From the IMG/VR virus record IMGVR_UViG_3300025141_007995, positions 2,730-66,729 of that record: DNA of 64,000 nucleotides, one strand, 5' to 3'. This document shows, piece after piece, positions 2 through 36,512 of the stretch; the first letter of the stretch is position 1, and every line of letters starts with the position of its first letter. The notes under the pieces were generated by a model. The model was not told where the DNA came from, did not search any database, and was given only the letters and a program-made list of their open reading frames with translations. The stretch is from a virus. Made by a program: the position numbers and the translations under genes.

Positions 2-100
2 AGAAATGAATATATGTACGGATATATGGACGGTTGGAATAAAGCTCCAATAAAAATATGCCATAAAATAGGAGGTAGAGAATATAAATTTACAAAATGA
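2..100 (+). CDS. 3' end of a CDS truncated by the window edge
   Basis: Open frame ...RNEYMYGYMDGWNKAPIKICHKIGGREYKFTK; its TGA overlaps the ATG at 97 (ATGA). Confidence 0.55.
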   Translation, partial: RNEYMYGYMDGWNKAPIKICHKIGGREYKFTK

Positions 101-663
101 GAGTTTGCATCTATGCTCAACCTAGAACTGGCTCAACAGTTTTAAGTTCTTATATTTCTAATCAATTAGGTCTATTAAATGTAGTCGAACCTTATAATAT
201 TAAAAACCCTGCATACTACTCAGATGAGCAAGTTTGGCTAGACCCAAGTACTACAGTTAAATTCTTATTTGGTGAGTTAAGATCTGAACAAGAAACTTCT
301 TTACATCATTATTTTGATAAAGTAATAGTTTTAACAAGAGAAGATGATATATCAGGTGGTGAAAGTCATTTGATGGCATCAATTACCGGTAAATGGGAAC
401 CTTATAAGTATAACATAAGTAAATTTGATCGAGAAGAAAAGATTAAATTACAAGAAACTATTAAATTAAGAGCTGAGATTAGAAAGCAAATGAAAGCTTT
501 ACCTTATTTTCAAGTTACTTACGAAGAAATATTTTACAGAACAGTTGGAATTACGAATATAAATTCTTATCTTTGTATAAAGCAGGATAACTCGGATATA
601 GGTATGTTCAACTTAGAGCATAAGTATAGACGAGATCCTATAAATAAAAAGTCACTAATTTGA
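97..663 (+). CDS. Sulfotransferase-like P-loop protein
   Basis: N-terminal QPRTGST resembles the PAPS 5'-phosphosulfate loop; later VIVLTRED and VTYEEI motifs typical of the fold. Confidence 0.65.
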   Translation: MRVCIYAQPRTGSTVLSSYISNQLGLLNVVEPYNIKNPAYYSDEQVWLDPSTTVKFLFGELRSEQETSLHHYFDKVIVLTREDDISGGESHLMASITGKWEPYKYNISKFDREEKIKLQETIKLRAEIRKQMKALPYFQVTYEEIFYRTVGITNINSYLCIKQDNSDIGMFNLEHKYRRDPINKKSLI

Positions 664-31727: not shown

Positions 31728-31748
31728 TATTTATATTAAAGAATTTTT

Positions 31749-34058
31749 ATGCAAGGAACATTATTTTCTTCTGATTACGTAATAGATGCTAACGGTAATG
31801 AAAGATTAATTGAAATCAATACTGATACTGCGTTTACAGACGACTTTATAGAGAACTATTTAAACTTAACTGACTTTATTAATATACTTTCTACTAATAG
31901 TATAGTAGAGGTAGTAATTATATATAAAGACTTCCATTATAATTTTGCAAATAAATTAGAAGAAGTATTAAGCACTCAGTTACCTTCTATTACATATACT
32001 AGACATTTAGAAGACATAAATTCTATCTATCCAGGTTCAGTTACAGACGCAGCTAATAAATTTATATTAAGACTTGCTTATAATGAAAACGCATTATTTG
32101 ATTCAACTTATGCTAAAAATAAATTAAACTTATTTGAATTATTTGTAGACAATAATAATACAACTGAAATAGCTGAATTTTACCATTCAGGATCTGACGG
32201 AATCACTAATACAATTACAGCTTCAACTAATGCATCAAACATTCCAGATTATATATCTAAACCAGCAGAAGTTCTTCACTCATCTTATAACCTATATAAA
32301 GGAGTTTCCGGTTCTAACGATCAAGAGAAATTAGATAATGTAATAGAAGAAGTAGAAGATATTGAAAGAGTTGATAAAATGATACAAAAGTATCATTATA
32401 ATAGTGGCCAAGTTGAAAGTGATAGAATTACATCTATTAGATTATTTTCTATAGTTTATGGTACTGATATTAAATTAGTACATTTAGGTATAGCTAAATC
32501 TTCAGCAATATTGACTATACCAACTTCAATTGAATATGATTACAGAGGAAAAGGAAGATTAAAACTACAGCATTACTACGAATTTGCTACTAATTTTCCT
32601 AAGATGAATCGTAAGCAAGGAGGATTTAGACCTACTGTAAAAGTATTAAAAACTGATAATACAGGAGTTGAATTAAGCTCAGTAAAAGTAAATGATGTAT
32701 TAGCTTCATATTATGTTTCTGGATCACCAGATACTGATAGCGGATCAGCATTAGTTGAATGGAGTGTACCAGGTGATACTATTCCTTCTGGTTCTTTTAG
32801 AACTAGTTCAGTAGTTTTTCAAGCTATGTCATCTTCAGCAGGTGATGCTACTTTAGGTAGATTAGTTACTAACGATGGATTTGAACTTCCAGTTACACCA
32901 TCAACAGTATTTTTAGTACACAATGCTTCTACTAATACAGTTACATATGAAACTATGCATAATATTAACTCAGGAGATAGTTTATTTGATCTTGATGGTA
33001 ATAAGTTTTTAGTTTCACAATCATTATTAGACGTTTATTCAGATGAAGATAATATAGTTCATGAATTAAACATGGAATCAACCGATATGTACATCCTTAG
33101 TGCTTCAGGTATATTAGTTCACAATGCTCCTTGTTTTATAGCTGGGACTATGATAGAATGTGAAGATCTAATTAAACCTATAGAGGAAGTTAATGAAGGA
33201 GATAGAGTAGCTACTTACAATCATGAAACTAACGAAATAGAATTTAAAACAGTCGAAGAAATTAGTATGTATGATAATAAACCTATTATTAAAGTTACTA
33301 TAGGTGATATAGATATTACTAGCACACATGATCATCCATACTATGTAGAAGGTAAAGGATATGCTTCTTATAATCCTATTCAAACTTTTGAAGATGCTGG
33401 TTTAGAAGTAGCTAAGTTAGAAGTAGGAGATAAAGTAATGGATTATTATAAAAGTTTTGTAGAGGTAGTAAGTATAGAAGAGTTAGAAGAAACTGAGACT
33501 GTTTTTAATCTTAAACACGTAAAGGATAATAATAACTTTTATGCTAATAACTTCTTAGTTCATAATAGATCTGGTTGCTTTGTAGCAGGAAGTGAAGTAG
33601 CTTTAGCTAATGGTGATCATAAAAATATAGAAGATGTTGTCATTGGAGATTTAGTATTAAGTTGGAATGAAGAAACTCAACTAATTGAAGTAGATGAAGT
33701 ATACGATACCGTTACTCCTGTTAATACCAGACTTTACGATTTAACTTTTACTGACTCTAAAATTACCTGTACTCATGATCATCCAGTTTATGTCAGAAAT
33801 GGAGAGGAAGCTTCTTCTTTTGAACTAAAATCTATGTCACCAGAACAAAGTAACGAAAAATATAATTTACCTCATAAAGTTACTGAACTACTGATAGGAG
33901 ATAATGCTATTAATATTCATAATTCTGGAAGTAAATTAGAAAAAGCTGAGTATCATAATAGATTAGTAGGATGGGCAGATCCTGTAGCAACCTATACTTT
34001 AAGAGTTAAAAATAATAATAACTTCTTTGTTAATGGAATATTAGTACACAATAAATAA
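31749..34058 (+). CDS. Circularly permuted ATP-grasp-like domain fused to three tandem Hint (intein-like) domains
   Basis: N-terminal DYVID..RLIEINTD, then SKP and IQKY; Hint units end in VHN at ~33125, ~33566 and ~34052; units 2 and 3 begin CFIAGT / CFVAGS and carry THDHP. Confidence 0.8.
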   Translation: MQGTLFSSDYVIDANGNERLIEINTDTAFTDDFIENYLNLTDFINILSTNSIVEVVIIYKDFHYNFANKLEEVLSTQLPSITYTRHLEDINSIYPGSVTDAANKFILRLAYNENALFDSTYAKNKLNLFELFVDNNNTTEIAEFYHSGSDGITNTITASTNASNIPDYISKPAEVLHSSYNLYKGVSGSNDQEKLDNVIEEVEDIERVDKMIQKYHYNSGQVESDRITSIRLFSIVYGTDIKLVHLGIAKSSAILTIPTSIEYDYRGKGRLKLQHYYEFATNFPKMNRKQGGFRPTVKVLKTDNTGVELSSVKVNDVLASYYVSGSPDTDSGSALVEWSVPGDTIPSGSFRTSSVVFQAMSSSAGDATLGRLVTNDGFELPVTPSTVFLVHNASTNTVTYETMHNINSGDSLFDLDGNKFLVSQSLLDVYSDEDNIVHELNMESTDMYILSASGILVHNAPCFIAGTMIECEDLIKPIEEVNEGDRVATYNHETNEIEFKTVEEISMYDNKPIIKVTIGDIDITSTHDHPYYVEGKGYASYNPIQTFEDAGLEVAKLEVGDKVMDYYKSFVEVVSIEELEETETVFNLKHVKDNNNFYANNFLVHNRSGCFVAGSEVALANGDHKNIEDVVIGDLVLSWNEETQLIEVDEVYDTVTPVNTRLYDLTFTDSKITCTHDHPVYVRNGEEASSFELKSMSPEQSNEKYNLPHKVTELLIGDNAINIHNSGSKLEKAEYHNRLVGWADPVATYTLRVKNNNNFFVNGILVHNK

Positions 34059-34061
34059 ATT

Positions 34062-34202
34062 ATGGCATCATCAATATATAAAACAGTATCATTTAGTGAA
34101 GTTAGAGAAGGAAAACTCAATGCAGCTTCTTCTGCTCAAGAAACTAATACTAAAGCAATTATAGGAAGATTTATAACTTACTTTAAAGCAAAACACTTAT
34201 AA
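34062..34202 (+). CDS. Small protein coupled to the Hint polyprotein (46 aa, not in ORF track)
   Basis: MASSIYKTVSFSEVREGKLNAASSAQETNTKAIIGRFITYFKAKHL, 3 nt after the upstream stop. Confidence 0.7.
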   Translation: MASSIYKTVSFSEVREGKLNAASSAQETNTKAIIGRFITYFKAKHL

Positions 34203-34251
34203 AAAAAGTTGCTTTTTCGAGTTATTTTACTTATATTATTATTTAAATGTT

Positions 34252-34446
34252 ATGATTATGAACCAGTTATTTTTTATTAAATCACACAAAGTTAACCACA
34301 AAACAATAGATTCAGTAATGGAAGGTTGCCATATTGAATTCGATGGTTATCGATTCGAGCAACTTAAGAAACGTCCTTTCGGTAGATCTATAGATAAGAG
34401 ATTGAGGAGTATAAATGAAGAAACTCAATTAGTTATCTATAAATAA
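34252..34446 (+). CDS. Hypothetical protein
   Basis: 64-aa ORF after a promoter motif at ~34207. Confidence 0.6.
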   Translation: MIMNQLFFIKSHKVNHKTIDSVMEGCHIEFDGYRFEQLKKRPFGRSIDKRLRSINEETQLVIYK

Positions 34447-34806: not shown

Positions 34807-35316
34807 ATGGAAATTAAAATTATTTACGGATCAGATACAGGTAATACAGAAGACGTAACTAATATGTTAGTTAATCTTTTAGATAATACTGAAGTAGTTA
34901 CAGTTGAAGACTTAGAACCTAAGGATTGGAAATCTCATGAATATTATTTATTAGGAATACCTACTTGGTATGATGGTGAACTTCAAAGTGATTGGGAAGA
35001 GTACTTTGATGAATTTAAAACTATAGATTTTACAGGAAAGACTATAGCATTATTTGGTTTAGGAGATCAGTATACTTATGCTACTTGGTTTTGTGATGGA
35101 GTAGGAATATTAGCTAAAGTAATAATGGAAAATGGAGGTAAGGTTATAGGTTATACTGAAAAAGATAGTTCATATGATTTTGAAACTACTCCTAAGGTTT
35201 TAGTAGATGATAAAACTTTTTATGGGCTTTGTATAGATCAAGATAATCAAGAAGAACTTACAGAAGATAGAGTTAATAAATGGGTAGAAAAGGTAAAGAA
35301 AGAGTTGGAATCCTGA
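34807..35316 (+). CDS. fldA: Long-chain flavodoxin
   Basis: YGSDTGNTE, GIPTWYDGELQSDW, ALFGLGDQ, GLCIDQDNQ. Confidence 0.93.
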   Translation: MEIKIIYGSDTGNTEDVTNMLVNLLDNTEVVTVEDLEPKDWKSHEYYLLGIPTWYDGELQSDWEEYFDEFKTIDFTGKTIALFGLGDQYTYATWFCDGVGILAKVIMENGGKVIGYTEKDSSYDFETTPKVLVDDKTFYGLCIDQDNQEELTEDRVNKWVEKVKKELES

Positions 35317-35352
35317 TGAATTCTTCTTATATTTATAGATAAAGGAAGTAAT

Positions 35353-35595
35353 ATGGCAGAAACAAACAGATACGTAGTAAAAATAGAAGCTTACGTTTAT
35401 GGTAAAGATGATTATCATGTAAGAATGAAAGCTCATAAAATGCTTGATAAAATCAATGCAGATAATTTAAACGCAGATGCTGAAATAAAAGAGCTTGGCT
35501 CTCAACCTTTCGGTACTATGCAATATAGAGAATTAGAGGACTTTAGTCGTCCTTCTAAATTAGATGAACCGGACGATAGTCCATTACCGTTCTAA
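35353..35595 (+). CDS. Hypothetical protein with acidic DDSPLPF tail
   Basis: The C-terminus resembles the SSB-type DDxPF motif. Confidence 0.65.
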   Translation: MAETNRYVVKIEAYVYGKDDYHVRMKAHKMLDKINADNLNADAEIKELGSQPFGTMQYRELEDFSRPSKLDEPDDSPLPF

Positions 35596-35821
35596 TATGT
35601 TTGAAGTAATACGATTTATTAGCGCTTATTTGGGTATAGGCTGTATTTGGATAATATGGTTTGAGTGGTTTTGTAATAACAATAAGATAGGAGGAGCATT
35701 TAGTAATAACGAAAGATATATTCAGATGCTATTGTGGCCTCTTAATTTAGGAGTATTTCTATATACTTGGGTACTTGAAGTTATAAATAATTTTAATAAT
35801 GGCGGACCTAGGAGTTATTAA
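35564..35821 (+). CDS. Small two-TM membrane protein (likely start MFEVIR)
   Basis: Hydrophobic helices with an LLWP motif. Confidence 0.55.
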   Translation: MNRTIVHYRSNMFEVIRFISAYLGIGCIWIIWFEWFCNNNKIGGAFSNNERYIQMLLWPLNLGVFLYTWVLEVINNFNNGGPRSY

Positions 35822-36512
35822 ATCAATAATAAAAGAAACTAAAAACGTATGGAGATTCAAAATAGAGTCTCCTTTGTTCGATACATTAAATTACAAATCA
35901 GGACAACTTATTAATTTATTTTTAAGAAGTCCAAATGAACCTCCTCATATCAGAAGTTATTCAATATCATCATGGCCTGATAATACTAATGAATTAGAAA
36001 TAATAGTAACAGATCAACCAGGAGGTAAGATGAGTGAGTTACTATTTAGAGAAGCTAAGGTTGGGACTGAATTAGAGTACCAAGGACCTATGGGTGTATT
36101 TACCCTTCCGGAAGAGATAGATAGAGATTTATATTTCGTATGTACTGGATCAGGTATTAGCCCTTTCAGATCCATGGTTAATTATGTGACTAAGAACAAT
36201 ATAAAAACGAAGAATATACATCTTATATATGGATGTAGAACTAAAGCAGATCTACTTTATTACGATGAGTTAAAGCAATTAGAAAAAGAGAATCCTAATT
36301 TTCATTATCATTGTACTCTATCGAGAGAAGAAGTAGAAGGTTTTCATCATGGATATGTTCACCCTATCTATTTAGATTTAGTTAAAGATACTAAAGAAAA
36401 ACCTCTATTTTACCTATGTGGTTGGAAACAAATGATTACAGATACTAGAACTAATCTTAGTAGTCTCGATTACAAAATGGGTAAAGATATCAGGATAGAA
36501 ATATTCGGTTAG
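35799..36512 (+). CDS. Ferredoxin/flavodoxin-NADP reductase family oxidoreductase
   Basis: GQ..RSYSISS, GGKMS, GPMGVF, TGSGISPF, YGCR, YLCG. Confidence 0.9.
   Translation: MADLGVIKSIIKETKNVWRFKIESPLFDTLNYKSGQLINLFLRSPNEPPHIRSYSISSWPDNTNELEIIVTDQPGGKMSELLFREAKVGTELEYQGPMGVFTLPEEIDRDLYFVCTGSGISPFRSMVNYVTKNNIKTKNIHLIYGCRTKADLLYYDELKQLEKENPNFHYHCTLSREEVEGFHHGYVHPIYLDLVKDTKEKPLFYLCGWKQMITDTRTNLSSLDYKMGKDIRIEIFG

What the first reader, a model, noticed from the sequence alone, without database searches (positions are those of the whole stretch)
31749..34202. ATP-grasp-like ligase fused to three tandem Hint domains that bracket only 2-3-residue peptides
Seen: residues ~1-290 have D..LIEINTD at the very N-terminus, followed by SKP and IQKY, which is the motif order of circularly permuted ATP-grasp amide ligases. 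Then come Hint1 (~292-459; Gly in place of Cys1, no TxxH His, ends VHN), linker AP, Hint2 (C462FIAGT..THDHP..VHN), linker RSG, Hint3 (C610FVAGS..THDHP..VHN) and a final K. No +1 residue is C/S/T and there is no homing endonuclease. Established: such BIL/Hedgehog-type Hints cleave or transfer their N-flank rather than splice canonically. Inference: a self-processing polyprotein in which Asn cyclisation frees AP-Hint2 and RSG-Hint3, whose thioesters could donate micro-peptides, while the ligase stays tied to Hint1. A 46-aa ORF 3 nt downstream is a candidate substrate or partner, and an NPPF methyltransferase lies upstream. This is my best candidate for an undescribed peptide-tagging/modification system.
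Basis: partly seen in the sequence, partly recalled or inferred. Interest (0 to 1): 0.92.

Follow-up and report, generated by a model that had tools for sequence, protein, structure and literature searches.

The report
Phage ATP-grasp ligase with Hint tail
An uncultured marine phage encodes an ATP-using bond-forming enzyme fused to three self-cutting (Hint) domains and always paired with a tiny partner protein, a widespread virus-only design whose product is still unknown.

Summary
ORF 31749-34058 (769 aa) is a circularly permuted ATP-grasp ligase (residues 1-290). Its confident model matches YjfC/YgiC, glutathionylspermidine synthetase and eukaryotic glutathione synthetase. It is followed by Hint1, which has no Cys1 and no TxxH but ends in HN. 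Then come AP, Hint2, RSG, Hint3 and a final K.

The 46-aa ORF lies directly downstream in 19 of 19 loci. It is predicted to bind the ATP-grasp and Hint1 domains as a subunit rather than as a substrate.

New here: the ligase, Hint1 and the partner are the constant core of a large virus-only superfamily. What follows Hint1's HN varies:
- short tails with a Lys at or near the end;
- Cys-rich peptides of 27-70 aa, most ending in Lys plus a hydrophobic residue;
- in this branch, one to three complete BIL-type Hints.

Hint1 therefore looks like a release device for a variable cargo. The inter-Hint peptides vary from 0 to 15 aa and are not conserved products, so the "micro-peptide donor" idea is only weakly supported. 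The NPPF methyltransferase is not a conserved neighbour.

The substrate and the processing itself are untested. I found no paper on this design. The scan has noted the same family before on other DNA (e.g. e1-6027141, e1-5982532, e1-5770648).

The parts
31728..31748 (+).
   Evidence: Sequence. The sigma-70-type scan gives no more sites than shuffles do (27 found, 27.3 expected), so promoter function is not shown.
31749..34058 (+). Whole ORF, 769 aa: ATP-grasp, Hint1, AP, Hint2, RSG, Hint3, K
   Evidence: Full-length relatives (241 clusters; 18 full-length viral loci).
31749..32618 (+). Residues 1-290: circularly permuted ATP-grasp ligase domain. D9, E22, N24, R108, D118, D167, R231 and H275 are invariant; K171 and K184 are kept in at least 90%.
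   Evidence: AF2 model pLDDT 92.0, pTM 0.87. Foldseek: YjfC 7uk6 E 2.3e-7, human GS 2hgs, YgiC 7uk8, GspS 2io8. VIA-align: Z 10.1-8.6 over model residues 1..285 for the permuted enzymes, but Z 5-7.3 over 51..286 only for unpermuted ones. Conservation.
32619..33125 (+). Residues 291-459: Hint1. Gly292 replaces Cys1, there is no TxxH, a conserved insert (SGSPD..W..G..PSGS..TSS) is present, and the domain ends H458-N459.
   Evidence: hhalign; model and Foldseek. HN ends Hint1 in 117 of 120 homologues.
33126..33131 (+). Linker Ala460-Pro461
   Evidence: AP in 90, SP in 12, none in 9, A in 5, NP in 2 and other in 2 of 120.
33132..33566 (+). Residues 462-606: Hint2, a complete A-type BIL-like Hint (C462, T526..H529, H605-N606)
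   Evidence: Pfam. phmmer against PDB: 2lwy E 8.8e-12. Invariant residues.
33567..33575 (+). Linker Arg607-Ser-Gly609
   Evidence: Linkers between Cys-Hints are 1-15 aa, and most begin with R or K.
33576..34052 (+). Residues 610-768: Hint3, a complete A-type BIL-like Hint (C610, THDHP, H767-N768)
   Evidence: Pfam. phmmer against PDB: BIL2 6tmm E 4.8e-9. Hint2 against Hint3 by hhalign: E 2.6e-53.
34053..34058 (+). Terminal Lys769 and the stop codon
   Evidence: After the last Cys-Hint the protein ends in K alone in 97 of 120 and in KL/KA/KV/KI in 11 more.
34062..34202 (+). 46-aa partner protein: invariant Tyr6 and a C-terminal amphipathic helix ending K-A-K-H-L
   Evidence: Directly downstream (1-22 nt) in 19 of 19 loci; alignment A3. 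Predicted complex: ipSAE 0.81 in three runs, best control 0.00.

Best explanation
The two genes form the core of a virus-only module.

(1) Residues 1-290 are a small, circularly permuted ATP-grasp ligase. It belongs structurally with the group that phosphorylates the C-terminal carboxylate of a peptide and joins it to an amine: glutathione synthetase, glutathionylspermidine synthetase, and the peptide-spermidine ligases YgiC/YjfC. Its metal and ATP residues are intact, so it is probably active.

(2) Hint1 has lost the N-terminal nucleophile and the block-B His but keeps the invariant His-Asn. It can therefore only cut at its own C-terminal end, by Asn cyclisation. That cut releases whatever follows and exposes a new alpha-amine.

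(3) What follows is a variable cargo. In relatives it is a short tail with a Lys at or near the end, or a Cys-rich peptide of 27-70 aa. In this branch it is two complete A-type BIL-like Hints (Cys1, TxxH, HN). Each of these can form an N-terminal thioester and cut at its C-end. They cannot splice in the canonical way. AP, RSG and K are junction residues rather than defined products.

(4) The 46-aa protein is a structural subunit. It covers the back of the ATP-grasp sheet and bridges to Hint1.

Shown: folds, motifs, conservation, gene pairing, cargo variation, and a predicted complex.
Inferred: ligase activity, Asn cyclisation at N459/N606/N768, and thioester formation at C462/C610.
Unknown: the ligase's substrates. 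My best guess is a peptide or protein C-terminal carboxylate.
For: ATP-grasp domain. The model has pLDDT 92.0. Foldseek gives 35 PDB matches at E<=0.001, led by YjfC 7uk6 (2.3e-7), human GS, YgiC and GspS. VIA-align gives Z 10.1 (5oeu_A, rmsd 5.1, 226 aligned), 9.7 (GspS 2io7_A, rmsd 4.3, 211) and 9.6 (YgiC 7uka_A, rmsd 4.3, 205), all spanning model residues 1..285. Unpermuted ArgX, RimK and Ddl align only from about residue 51, at Z 7.3-5.2. D9, E22, N24, R108, D118, D167 and R231 are invariant in 51 sequences. The same D/E/N, two Lys, Arg and HN are invariant in the Cys-cargo branch. YgiC/YjfC are cited as peptide-spermidine ligases in PMC12568646 (passages read).

Hint1. HN ends it in 117 of 120.

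Cys-Hints. All 235 of 235 start with Cys and 233 of 235 end in HN. The closest solved sequences are 2lwy (8.8e-12) and BIL2 6tmm (4.8e-9).

Architecture. Of 120 listed homologues, 100 have 2 Cys-Hints, 12 have 1, 7 have 3, and 1 is a fragment. Shorter proteins found were almost all fragments from short contigs (21 hits).

Cargo variation. phmmer with the N-domain finds 228 clusters, and in nearly all of the 150 listed the match starts at residue 1. In 26 of 113 representatives of at least 430 aa, Hint1 is followed by no Cys-Hint. Instead there are tails such as PAPPPKL, KVKIEPPK or K, or Cys-rich peptides; P0339 adds a Peptidase_S74 domain (29.1 bits, cut-off 22). IMG/VR holds 319 relatives of the Cys-cargo branch.

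Partner. It lies downstream in 19 of 19 loci. In the Cys-cargo branch 78 of 80 loci have a small downstream ORF, and in 60 of them it ends ..H[LSTMI]. Predicted complex: score 0.81, best of 3 controls 0.00; that mark was reached by 58 of 80 solved complexes and 2 of 110 mismatched pairs. The runs agree in at least 90% of contacts and the partner's pLDDT is at least 84. The contacts are residues 8/10/12, 228-236 (even numbers), 241-255 and Hint1 367-432. They alternate with the invariant D9 and R231, which places them on the opposite face of the sheet.
Against: - No Pfam or PHROG family matches residues 1-460. The ATP-grasp assignment therefore rests on a predicted structure and on motif logic. 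VIA-align's own note says Z of 7-8 is common for unrelated folds; here Z reaches 10.
- The roles I give to K171, K184 and D9/E22/N24 follow recalled ATP-grasp motifs, not a residue-level superposition.
- No processing has been observed.
- Pro at -1 of Hint2 (AP/SP/NP in 104 of 120) is, from recalled intein engineering practice, unfavourable for N-S acyl shift. Hint2's N-junction may be deliberately inert.
- A review states that A-type BILs cleave but cannot ligate (PMC7765530, passage read). BIL2, however, forms a Lys isopeptide (PMC8616854, section 2.4 passages). So I cannot tell whether these Hints only cut or also join.
- The complex prediction is the model's own confidence and used my own alignments.
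- Why a phage should keep Hints as cargo is unexplained.
Confidence: 0.55

Rival explanations
1. The Cys-Hints excise themselves by BIL-type splicing. After Asn cyclisation, the freed amine, or the epsilon-amine of the +1 Lys, attacks the upstream thioester. The mature protein then carries only a short tail (AP+RSG+K), like the short-tail relatives. On this view Hint2 and Hint3 are removable inserts in the tail, either parasitic or a timing device, and not cargo with a job of their own.
For: Concatenated non-Hint residues are 4-18 aa. They start A/S-P, contain R/K and end in K. This resembles the tails of Hint1-only relatives (PAPPPKL, KPKQPKK, KVKIEPPK, K). Some Cys-Hint proteins end RGIPKL/RGIPKI, like the ..GPIPKL ends of Cys-rich cargo. 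The number of Cys-Hints varies from 0 to 3. BIL2, one of the closest solved relatives, joins its N-flank to a Lys amine without ATP (PMC8616854). Unrelated phage proteins also end in a single Hint plus HNK (L041, L057, L061, L069).
Against: +1 is Arg at most internal junctions, and Arg is a poor nucleophile. A review says A-type BILs cannot ligate (PMC7765530). Hint2 and Hint3 are only about 35% identical and align position by position across a family at 33-41% identity, so they are old, retained parts rather than recent invaders. A free-standing 166-aa Hint gene lies near the main gene in L004, which suggests the Hint itself is wanted.
Confidence: 0.2
2. Asn cyclisation frees AP-Hint2 and RSG-Hint3, and their thioesters donate the micro-peptides AP and RSG to acceptors. 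This would be a peptide-tagging system. A chemical variant is that free Ala-Pro-thioester closes to the diketopiperazine cyclo(Ala-Pro).
For: Every linker has HN upstream and Cys downstream. X-Pro is kept at linker 1 in 104 of 120. From recalled chemistry, X-Pro thioesters cyclise readily.
Against: Linker 1 is absent in 9 of 120 and is a single Ala in 5. Linker 2 ranges from R alone to 15 residues, with no shared sequence beyond the first R/K. Pro at -1 usually hinders thioester formation in studied inteins (recalled). Neighbour content does not track linker length across 19 loci.
Confidence: 0.1
3. The Hints are chemically dead structural or binding modules, for example a multivalent docking platform, and the protein stays whole.
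For: Hint1 has already lost half of its catalytic set. Pfam's AXH family, a non-catalytic module, scores best on Hint2 (E 1.1e-20).
Against: Cys1 is kept in 235 of 235, HN in 233 of 235, and T526/H529 are invariant. Such retention of catalytic residues is not expected for a purely structural role.
Confidence: 0.07
4. They are ordinary selfish inteins that splice out cleanly from a host enzyme.
For: The Hint fold, mini-intein size, and Cys1/TxxH/HN.
Against: There is no C/S/T at any +1 position and no homing endonuclease. The Hints sit at the C-terminal end rather than inside a conserved host motif, and nothing but 1-3 residues follows them.
Confidence: 0.03

Closest known systems
E. coli YgiC/YjfC (peptide-spermidine ligases), the synthetase domain of glutathionylspermidine synthetase, and eukaryotic glutathione/homoglutathione synthetase (the circularly permuted ATP-grasp group)
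   Same: Same fold and same permuted strand order. The model aligns from residue 1 to about 285 with these enzymes, and the D-x12-E-x-N metal motif sits at the N-terminus. All of them activate the C-terminal carboxylate of a peptide (YgiC/YjfC per PMC12568646; the others recalled).
   Different: About 290 aa instead of 370-600. No Pfam hit. Sequence identity is 8-16%. It is fused to Hints, needs a 46-aa partner that is predicted to cover the back of the sheet, is found in viruses only, and its substrate is unknown.
A-type bacterial intein-like (BIL) domains: C. thermocellum BIL (PDB 2lwy) and BIL2 of the Tetrahymena thermophila BUBL1 polyubiquitin-like locus (PDB 6y75/6tmm)
   Same: Best sequence and structure matches for Hint2, Hint3 and Hint1. 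Cys1, TxxH, C-terminal HN, no +1 C/S/T, no endonuclease. In BUBL loci, BILs also stand in series within one polyprotein (recalled: Dassa et al. 2004, listed as a reference).
   Different: In BUBL each BIL is flanked by ubiquitin-like domains, which it transfers. Here the Hints are separated by only 0-15 residues, follow a Cys-less Hint, and are fused to an ATP-using ligase, whereas BIL2's reaction is ATP-independent (PMC8616854).
Hedgehog/Hog and Vint autoprocessing proteins
   Same: A functional N-terminal domain followed by a Hint that processes its own protein. 1at0 is among the structural matches.
   Different: Hint1 lacks the Cys that Hedgehog uses and keeps the Asn that Hedgehog lacks, so it cuts on the other side. 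There is no sterol-recognition region.
Enzyme-fused peptide precursors (for example borosin/omphalotin-type methyltransferase-core fusions; recalled, not searched)
   Same: In relatives, a modifying enzyme carries a Cys-rich peptide at its own C-terminus, among radical SAM, 2OG-Fe(II) oxygenase and SET-like genes.
   Different: Release would be by a built-in Hint (and in P0339 also a Peptidase_S74 domain) rather than by a separate protease. In this window no peptide of any length remains.

Membership tests
ATP-grasp superfamily, circularly permuted GS/GspS group | ATP-grasp fold | tested here: met
   Model pLDDT 92. Foldseek probability 1.00 to YjfC, GS, YgiC and GspS. VIA-align Z up to 10.1.
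ATP-grasp superfamily, circularly permuted GS/GspS group | Permuted order: the Mg-binding strands come first | tested here: met
   Permuted enzymes align over model residues 1..285. Unpermuted ArgX, RimK, Ddl and TTLL align over about 51..286 only.
ATP-grasp superfamily, circularly permuted GS/GspS group | Conserved metal and ATP ligands (D, E-x-N, two Lys, Arg) | tested here: met
   D9, E22, N24 and R231 are invariant and K171 and K184 are kept in at least 90% of 51 sequences. The same set is invariant in the Cys-cargo branch. Assigning roles to these residues rests on recalled motifs.
ATP-grasp superfamily, circularly permuted GS/GspS group | Match to a curated family model (GSP_synth, GSH_synth_ATP, CP_ATPgrasp) | tested here: not met
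   No Pfam family at E<=1 on residues 1-460 and no PHROG with a function.
ATP-grasp superfamily, circularly permuted GS/GspS group | ATP-dependent carboxylate-amine ligation | not testable with these tools
   Needs an enzyme assay.
A-type BIL domain (Hint2, Hint3) | Hint fold or family model above cut-off | tested here: met
   Intein_splicing, Hint, Hint_2 and PT-HINT are all above their cut-offs. 2lwy E 8.8e-12.
A-type BIL domain (Hint2, Hint3) | N-terminal Cys, block-B TxxH, C-terminal His-Asn | tested here: met
   C462/C610, THDHP in both, HN606/HN768. Cys1 in 235 of 235 and HN in 233 of 235.
A-type BIL domain (Hint2, Hint3) | No obligatory +1 nucleophile; located in a variable region of a non-housekeeping protein | tested here: met
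   +1 is R607 and K769. The number of Hints and the cargo vary among relatives.
A-type BIL domain (Hint2, Hint3) | Autocleavage at the N- and/or C-end | not testable with these tools
   Needs expression and mass spectrometry.
Canonical intein | C/S/T at +1, allowing transesterification and seamless splicing | tested here: not met
   +1 residues are A460, R607 and K769.
Canonical intein | Insertion within a conserved site of a host protein that is restored by splicing | tested here: not met
   The Hints are terminal, and only 2, 3 and 1 residues lie between or after them.
Hedgehog/Hog Hint | Cys1-driven release of the N-terminal domain, no C-terminal Asn, sterol-recognition region | tested here: not met
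   Hint1, which follows the N-domain, has Gly at position 1 and ends in HN. The structural match to 1at0 is at fold level only.
RiPP graspetide-type ATP-grasp with a precursor peptide | The adjacent small ORF is the substrate (a core with Thr/Ser/Lys and Asp/Glu crosslink sites) and the ATP-grasp belongs to the RiPP clade | tested here: inconclusive
   The RiPP ATP-grasp 7mgv scores only Z 4.8, against about 10 for the GS-like enzymes. The small protein keeps Tyr6 and an amphipathic helix and is predicted to bind away from the active-site face.

The most novel reading that the evidence does not exclude
The module is an ATP-driven system for joining protein and peptide ends.

Hint1's cut unmasks an alpha-amine held next to the ligase. 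The ligase activates C-terminal carboxylates. These could be the cargo's own Lys/Lys-Leu end, which would give head-to-tail closure. They could also be the K-x-[LI]-[IL] tails that many unrelated co-encoded enzymes carry in related phages.

In this branch the thing attached or released is a thioester-forming Hint. Each Hint would then be a single-use cartridge that can pass its N-flank to a further amine, as BIL2 does with ubiquitin-like domains. That would be viral protein tagging without E1, E2 or E3.
Probability: 0.1. Interest if true: 0.95.

Novelty: new variant of a known kind. Interest (0 to 1): 0.72.

Why it matters
Both halves are known chemistry, but I found their union described nowhere. 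One half is an ATP-driven amide ligase of the glutathione/peptide-polyamine type. The other is a set of Hint domains that make or break peptide bonds without ATP.

The union is common in uncultured aquatic phages. There are 241 clusters at 90% identity for this branch and 228 clusters at 50% identity for the ligase. IMG/VR yielded 136 relatives in one scan and 319 in another.

A Hint that has been stripped down to cut only at its C-end and is welded to a ligase would be a natural, self-timed release device. It would be useful to protein engineers, who already build C-cleaving inteins by mutation.

If the cargo peptides of relatives are natural products, this is an undescribed viral route to modified peptides. 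If the ligase acts on the shared C-terminal tails of neighbouring enzymes, it is a new kind of protein tagging.

Either way the module gives a concrete, expressible two-protein system for testing what phages do with the swarms of 2OG-Fe(II) oxygenases and other "auxiliary" enzymes beside it.

Tried and rejected
- Cultured relatives. tblastn against 50,697 phage records gave 4 records, and all matched only the Hint part (query 432-564). Megablast of 12 kb around the gene gave nothing.
- Cellular genomes. One scan of 185,579 species genomes found a single relative, on a 2.8-kb contig binned with a Cyanobium MAG. The family is virus-only as far as that scan sees.
- Stand-alone or split forms of the ligase. 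The "shorter" search gave 21 hits. Nineteen are on contigs under 3 kb, so they are probably fragments; P0190 (76-kb contig) and P0195 (5.8-kb contig) are the exceptions.
- Conserved neighbours other than the small ORF. The cytidylyltransferase-like gene recurs in 3 of 18 loci, the NPPF methyltransferase in 1, and the flavodoxin in 1. I rejected them as parts of the module.
- The idea that the small protein is fused to the N-terminus in the second subfamily. hhalign gives probability 0.5%. Rejected.
- A second C-terminal tag (G-[ND]-x-F-[KRV]) that seemed to co-vary with the second subfamily. All its bearers are paralogous P4H-like oxygenases, so it is the family's own C-terminus and not a tag. 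Rejected.
- Correlation between linker length and the number of tagged neighbours. None in 19 loci.
- The promoter/terminator scan around the gene gives no more sites than shuffles do.
- The ESM Atlas gave only viral "hypothetical" clusters at scores of 0.79-0.81, below the level that counts.
- Literature. I searched "Hint domain"+"ATP-grasp"+"phage" (2 papers; I read passages of one, PMC3417536, where the terms are unrelated; the other I saw only in the listing). I also searched "circularly permuted ATP-grasp" (3 papers, judged unrelated from titles and abstract starts), "bacterial intein-like"+"tandem"+"C-terminal cleavage" (0) and "intein-like"+"glutathionylspermidine" (0). The Iyer et al. 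2009 amidoligase paper is not held, so I could not check whether it mentions such fusions. Supplements were not consulted.
- My attempt to find a source for the effect of Pro at -1 failed, so that point stays recalled.


Full report
**What the window is**
The window is most of a 66.7-kb IMG/VR viral contig (CheckV completeness 40%). GC is about 30% and nearly all genes are on the + strand. It encodes Baseplate_J, an ATP-dependent DNA ligase, glycosyltransferases, a flavodoxin and an FNR-like reductase. No cultured phage in the held collection is close. Megablast finds nothing, and tblastn finds only four weak hits to the Hint part.

**The observation**
ORF 31749..34058 (769 aa) and ORF 34062..34202 (46 aa) are as described. 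Pfam sees Hint-type families above their cut-offs on 461-606 and from 606 on, nothing on 1-460, and no endonuclease.

Hint1 (291-459) is invisible to Pfam but is a real Hint:
- Profile-profile comparison with Hint2 and Hint3 gives probability 90% and 95% (E 1.4e-6 and 4.1e-8) over the whole domain. The N-domain control gives 0.2%.
- Its AF2 model (pLDDT 91.1) matches BIL2 of Tetrahymena (6y75, E 6.6e-9, TMt 0.84), the C. thermocellum BIL (2lwy, TMt 0.89), Hedgehog 1at0 and many inteins.
- The alignment places the nearly invariant Gly292 at the position of Cys1. No His aligns with the TxxH His.
- H458-N459 are invariant.

**The N-domain**
With an alignment of 51 sequences, AF2 gives a confident model (pLDDT 92.0, pTM 0.87).
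- Foldseek's best PDB matches are E. coli YjfC (E 2.3e-7), human glutathione synthetase, YgiC, homoglutathione synthetase and glutathionylspermidine synthetase. Thirty-five matches have E<=0.001.
- VIA-align against 48,161 representatives gives Z 10.1 to 8.6 for this same group, aligned over model residues 1..285. Unpermuted ATP-grasp enzymes (ArgX/LysX, RimK, TTLLs, Ddl) reach Z 7.3-5.2 and align only from about residue 51. That difference is what a circular permutation predicts.
- The tool's own caveat is that Z of 7-8 is common by chance. Z of 10 together with Foldseek probability 1.00 is above that level, but it is not overwhelming.
- D9, E22, N24, R108, D118, D167, R231 and H275 are invariant, and K171 and K184 are nearly so. 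The D-x12-E-x-N spacing is that of the ATP-grasp metal ligands (recalled).
- YgiC/YjfC are cited as peptide-spermidine ligases in PMC12568646 (passages read).

**The family**
A search of 5.8 billion proteins gave 241 clusters with E<=0.001. The best 120 align mostly over the full length at 33-41% identity, and all carry Hint families in Pfam. None has an informative name. My HMM count on those 120 gives 100 with two Cys-Hints, 12 with one, 7 with three, and 1 fragment.

| Feature | Count |
|---|---|
| Cys-Hints that start with Cys | 235 of 235 |
| Cys-Hints that end in HN | 233 of 235 |
| Hint1 domains that end in HN | 117 of 120 |
| Linker 1 | AP 90, SP 12, none 9, A 5, NP 2, other 2 |
| Linkers between Cys-Hints | 1 to 15 residues; most begin with R or K and are otherwise unlike |
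| After the last Hint | K alone in 97 of 120 |

Joined together, the non-Hint residues make 4-18-residue strings with no common sequence beyond A/S-P, a basic residue and the final K. I therefore read AP, RSG and K as junction residues and not as conserved products. One clade does keep a 12-15-residue Tyr-rich linker.

**The partner**
In the window and in all 18 full-length IMG/VR loci, a 43-50-aa ORF starts 1-22 nt after the stop (19 of 19). It has an invariant Tyr, an N-R/K motif, and a C-terminal amphipathic helix ending K-x-K-H-[LST].

The complex prediction of the full protein with this ORF scored 0.81 in three runs. The best of three controls scored 0.00. That mark was reached by 58 of 80 solved complexes and 2 of 110 mismatched pairs. 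The runs agree in at least 90% of contacts, and the partner's pLDDT is at least 84. This supports binding but does not show it.

The contact list (8, 10, 12, 17-18, 20, 228-236 at even numbers, 241-255, helix 128-140, and Hint1 367-432) alternates with the invariant D9 and R231. From this I infer that the partner lies on the face of the sheet opposite the active site and bridges to Hint1. That makes it a subunit rather than a substrate.

**The wider superfamily**
In nearly all of the 150 listed the match starts at residue 1 of the protein. Among 113 representatives of at least 430 aa, the counts are as follows.

| Architecture after the ligase | Representatives |
|---|---|
| Hint1 + one Cys-Hint | 44 |
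| Hint1 + two Cys-Hints | 30 |
| Hint1 + three Cys-Hints | 1 |
| Hint1 and no Cys-Hint | 26 |
| No Hint1 seen by my HMM | 12 |

In the Hint1-only group the HN is followed by one of two things:
- short tails such as PAPPPKL, YKLKPQF, ILAGKV, KVKIEPPK, KPKQPKK, AKSY or K;
- Cys-rich peptides of about 30-115 aa.

In P0339 the Cys-rich stretch is followed by a Peptidase_S74 self-cleaving chaperone domain (29.1 bits, cut-off 22). P0332, P0285 and P0314 give weaker hits below the cut-off.

A scan of IMG/VR with this branch found 319 relatives. In the 80 loci kept:
- The cargo is typically a 27-30-aa peptide with six Cys and many Trp/Tyr, most often ending in Lys plus Leu, Ile or Val.
- A small ORF follows in 78 of 80. 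It ends ..H[LSTMI] in 60, and 23 hit the HMM of this window's partner.

The constant core is therefore ligase + Hint1 + partner, and the cargo behind Hint1's HN is interchangeable. Some Cys-Hint proteins end RGIPKL/RGIPKI, like the ..GPIPKL ends of Cys-rich cargo. This suggests that the final K here is a remnant of the same tail.

Two more divergent subfamilies exist. They keep Hint1 (hhalign probability 98.6%) and have only a weak ATP-grasp match (probability 32%). They lack the small ORF, and in one of them the last Hint has lost HN.

**Neighbours**
Related loci carry swarms of 2OG-Fe(II) oxygenases, radical SAM, SET-like and other genes.

| Set of loci | + strand ORFs of at least 90 aa ending K-x-[LIF]-[ILF] |
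|---|---|
| 18 loci of this branch | 65 of 351 |
| Cys-cargo loci | 290 of 1050 |
| Second subfamily | 0 of 153 |
| Third subfamily | 0 of 26 |
| Other Hint-only phage loci | 2 of 475 |

The tail sits on unrelated families. In this window it is rare: 1 of 71 ORFs (97..663, ending KKSLI), and 0 of 21 within 7 kb of the gene. The link between tag and module is real in relatives, but it says little about this contig. The number of tagged neighbours does not follow linker length.

**How it most likely works**
*Shown:* the folds, the motifs, the pairing, the cargo variation and the predicted complex.

*Inferred:*
- Hint1, a natural "Cys1-less" Hint, cuts only after N459 by Asn cyclisation. This frees the cargo and a new alpha-amine.
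- Hint2 and Hint3, with full catalytic sets but R and K at +1, form thioesters and cut at both ends, or join by aminolysis as BIL2 does with a Lys (PMC8616854, section 2.4, passages read).
- They cannot splice canonically.
- The ligase, by analogy with its structural relatives, activates a peptide's C-terminal carboxylate.

I cannot tell whether the Hints only cut or also join. One review says A-type BILs cannot ligate (PMC7765530, passage read). Pro at -1 of Hint2 may even block its N-junction (recalled).

**Comparison and novelty**
The parts belong to known kinds: the permuted ATP-grasp ligases and the A-type BIL Hints. The closest analogues at system level are BUBL polyproteins and Hedgehog-type autoprocessing proteins.

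The differences are the fusion of an ATP-using ligase to a C-cleaving-only Hint, the obligatory small subunit, the interchangeable cargo, and here Hints as the cargo itself. My four literature searches found no description. One key paper is not held.

The scan has met this family repeatedly on other genomes, and those follow-ups reached similar verdicts. I rate it a new variant of a known kind, with a real chance that the system as a whole does something categorically new.

Noticed in passing
window 97-663; L004-L018, L033, L081-L166: Unrelated enzyme families beside the ligase-Hint gene in relatives end in K-x-[LI]-[IL]. These are 2OG-Fe(II) oxygenases, radical SAM, SET-like, GDSL-like and several families of unknown function. 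Counts: 65 of 351 and 290 of 1050 ORFs, against 2 of 475 in other Hint-bearing phage loci. In this window only the 188-aa ORF 97..663 (no Pfam hit) carries the strict form.
   Followed up: partly
L087-L166 (e.g. L162 6001-7485), P0302-P0340: Relatives carry Cys-rich, Trp/Tyr-rich peptides of 27-70 aa directly after Hint1's HN, most ending in Lys-Leu/Ile/Val. In P0339 (weaker hits in P0332, P0285 and P0314) the peptide is also followed by a Peptidase_S74 self-cleaving domain, so it is bracketed by two autoproteolytic modules.
   Followed up: partly
L020-L034, L042, L045: Divergent ligase-Hint subfamilies without the small downstream ORF. They have a conserved 146-165-aa gene directly upstream (MYYKIDLSNYEP...). 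In one subfamily the last Hint ends ..VSDESDTE instead of HNK. Arrays of P4H-like oxygenases lie downstream.
   Followed up: partly
L004 14724-15224; L041, L057, L061, L069: A free-standing 166-aa Hint gene (14-residue leader, Cys1, ends VHNKNL) lies about 2.4 kb from the main gene in L004. Unrelated phage proteins end in Gly-rich linker + Cys-Hint + HNK, so Hint+HNK is a portable C-terminal cassette in phages.
   Followed up: no
window 34203-34255: Right after the small ORF there is AGTTG, about 20 nt, then TATATT, ahead of the next gene. The ligase-Hint gene and its partner therefore look like a two-gene unit of their own.
   Followed up: no
window 34807-36512: A flavodoxin (PF00258, E 3.1e-22) and an FNR-like FAD/NAD-binding reductase (PF00175/PF00970) lie 0.7-2 kb downstream. 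The reductase recurs in 2 of 18 related loci and the flavodoxin in 1.
   Followed up: partly
L086 (CAYNGR010000277.1, 2.8 kb): The only hit in 185,579 species genomes is a short contig binned with an uncultured Cyanobium MAG. It is probably phage DNA, and a hint that some members infect picocyanobacteria.
   Followed up: no
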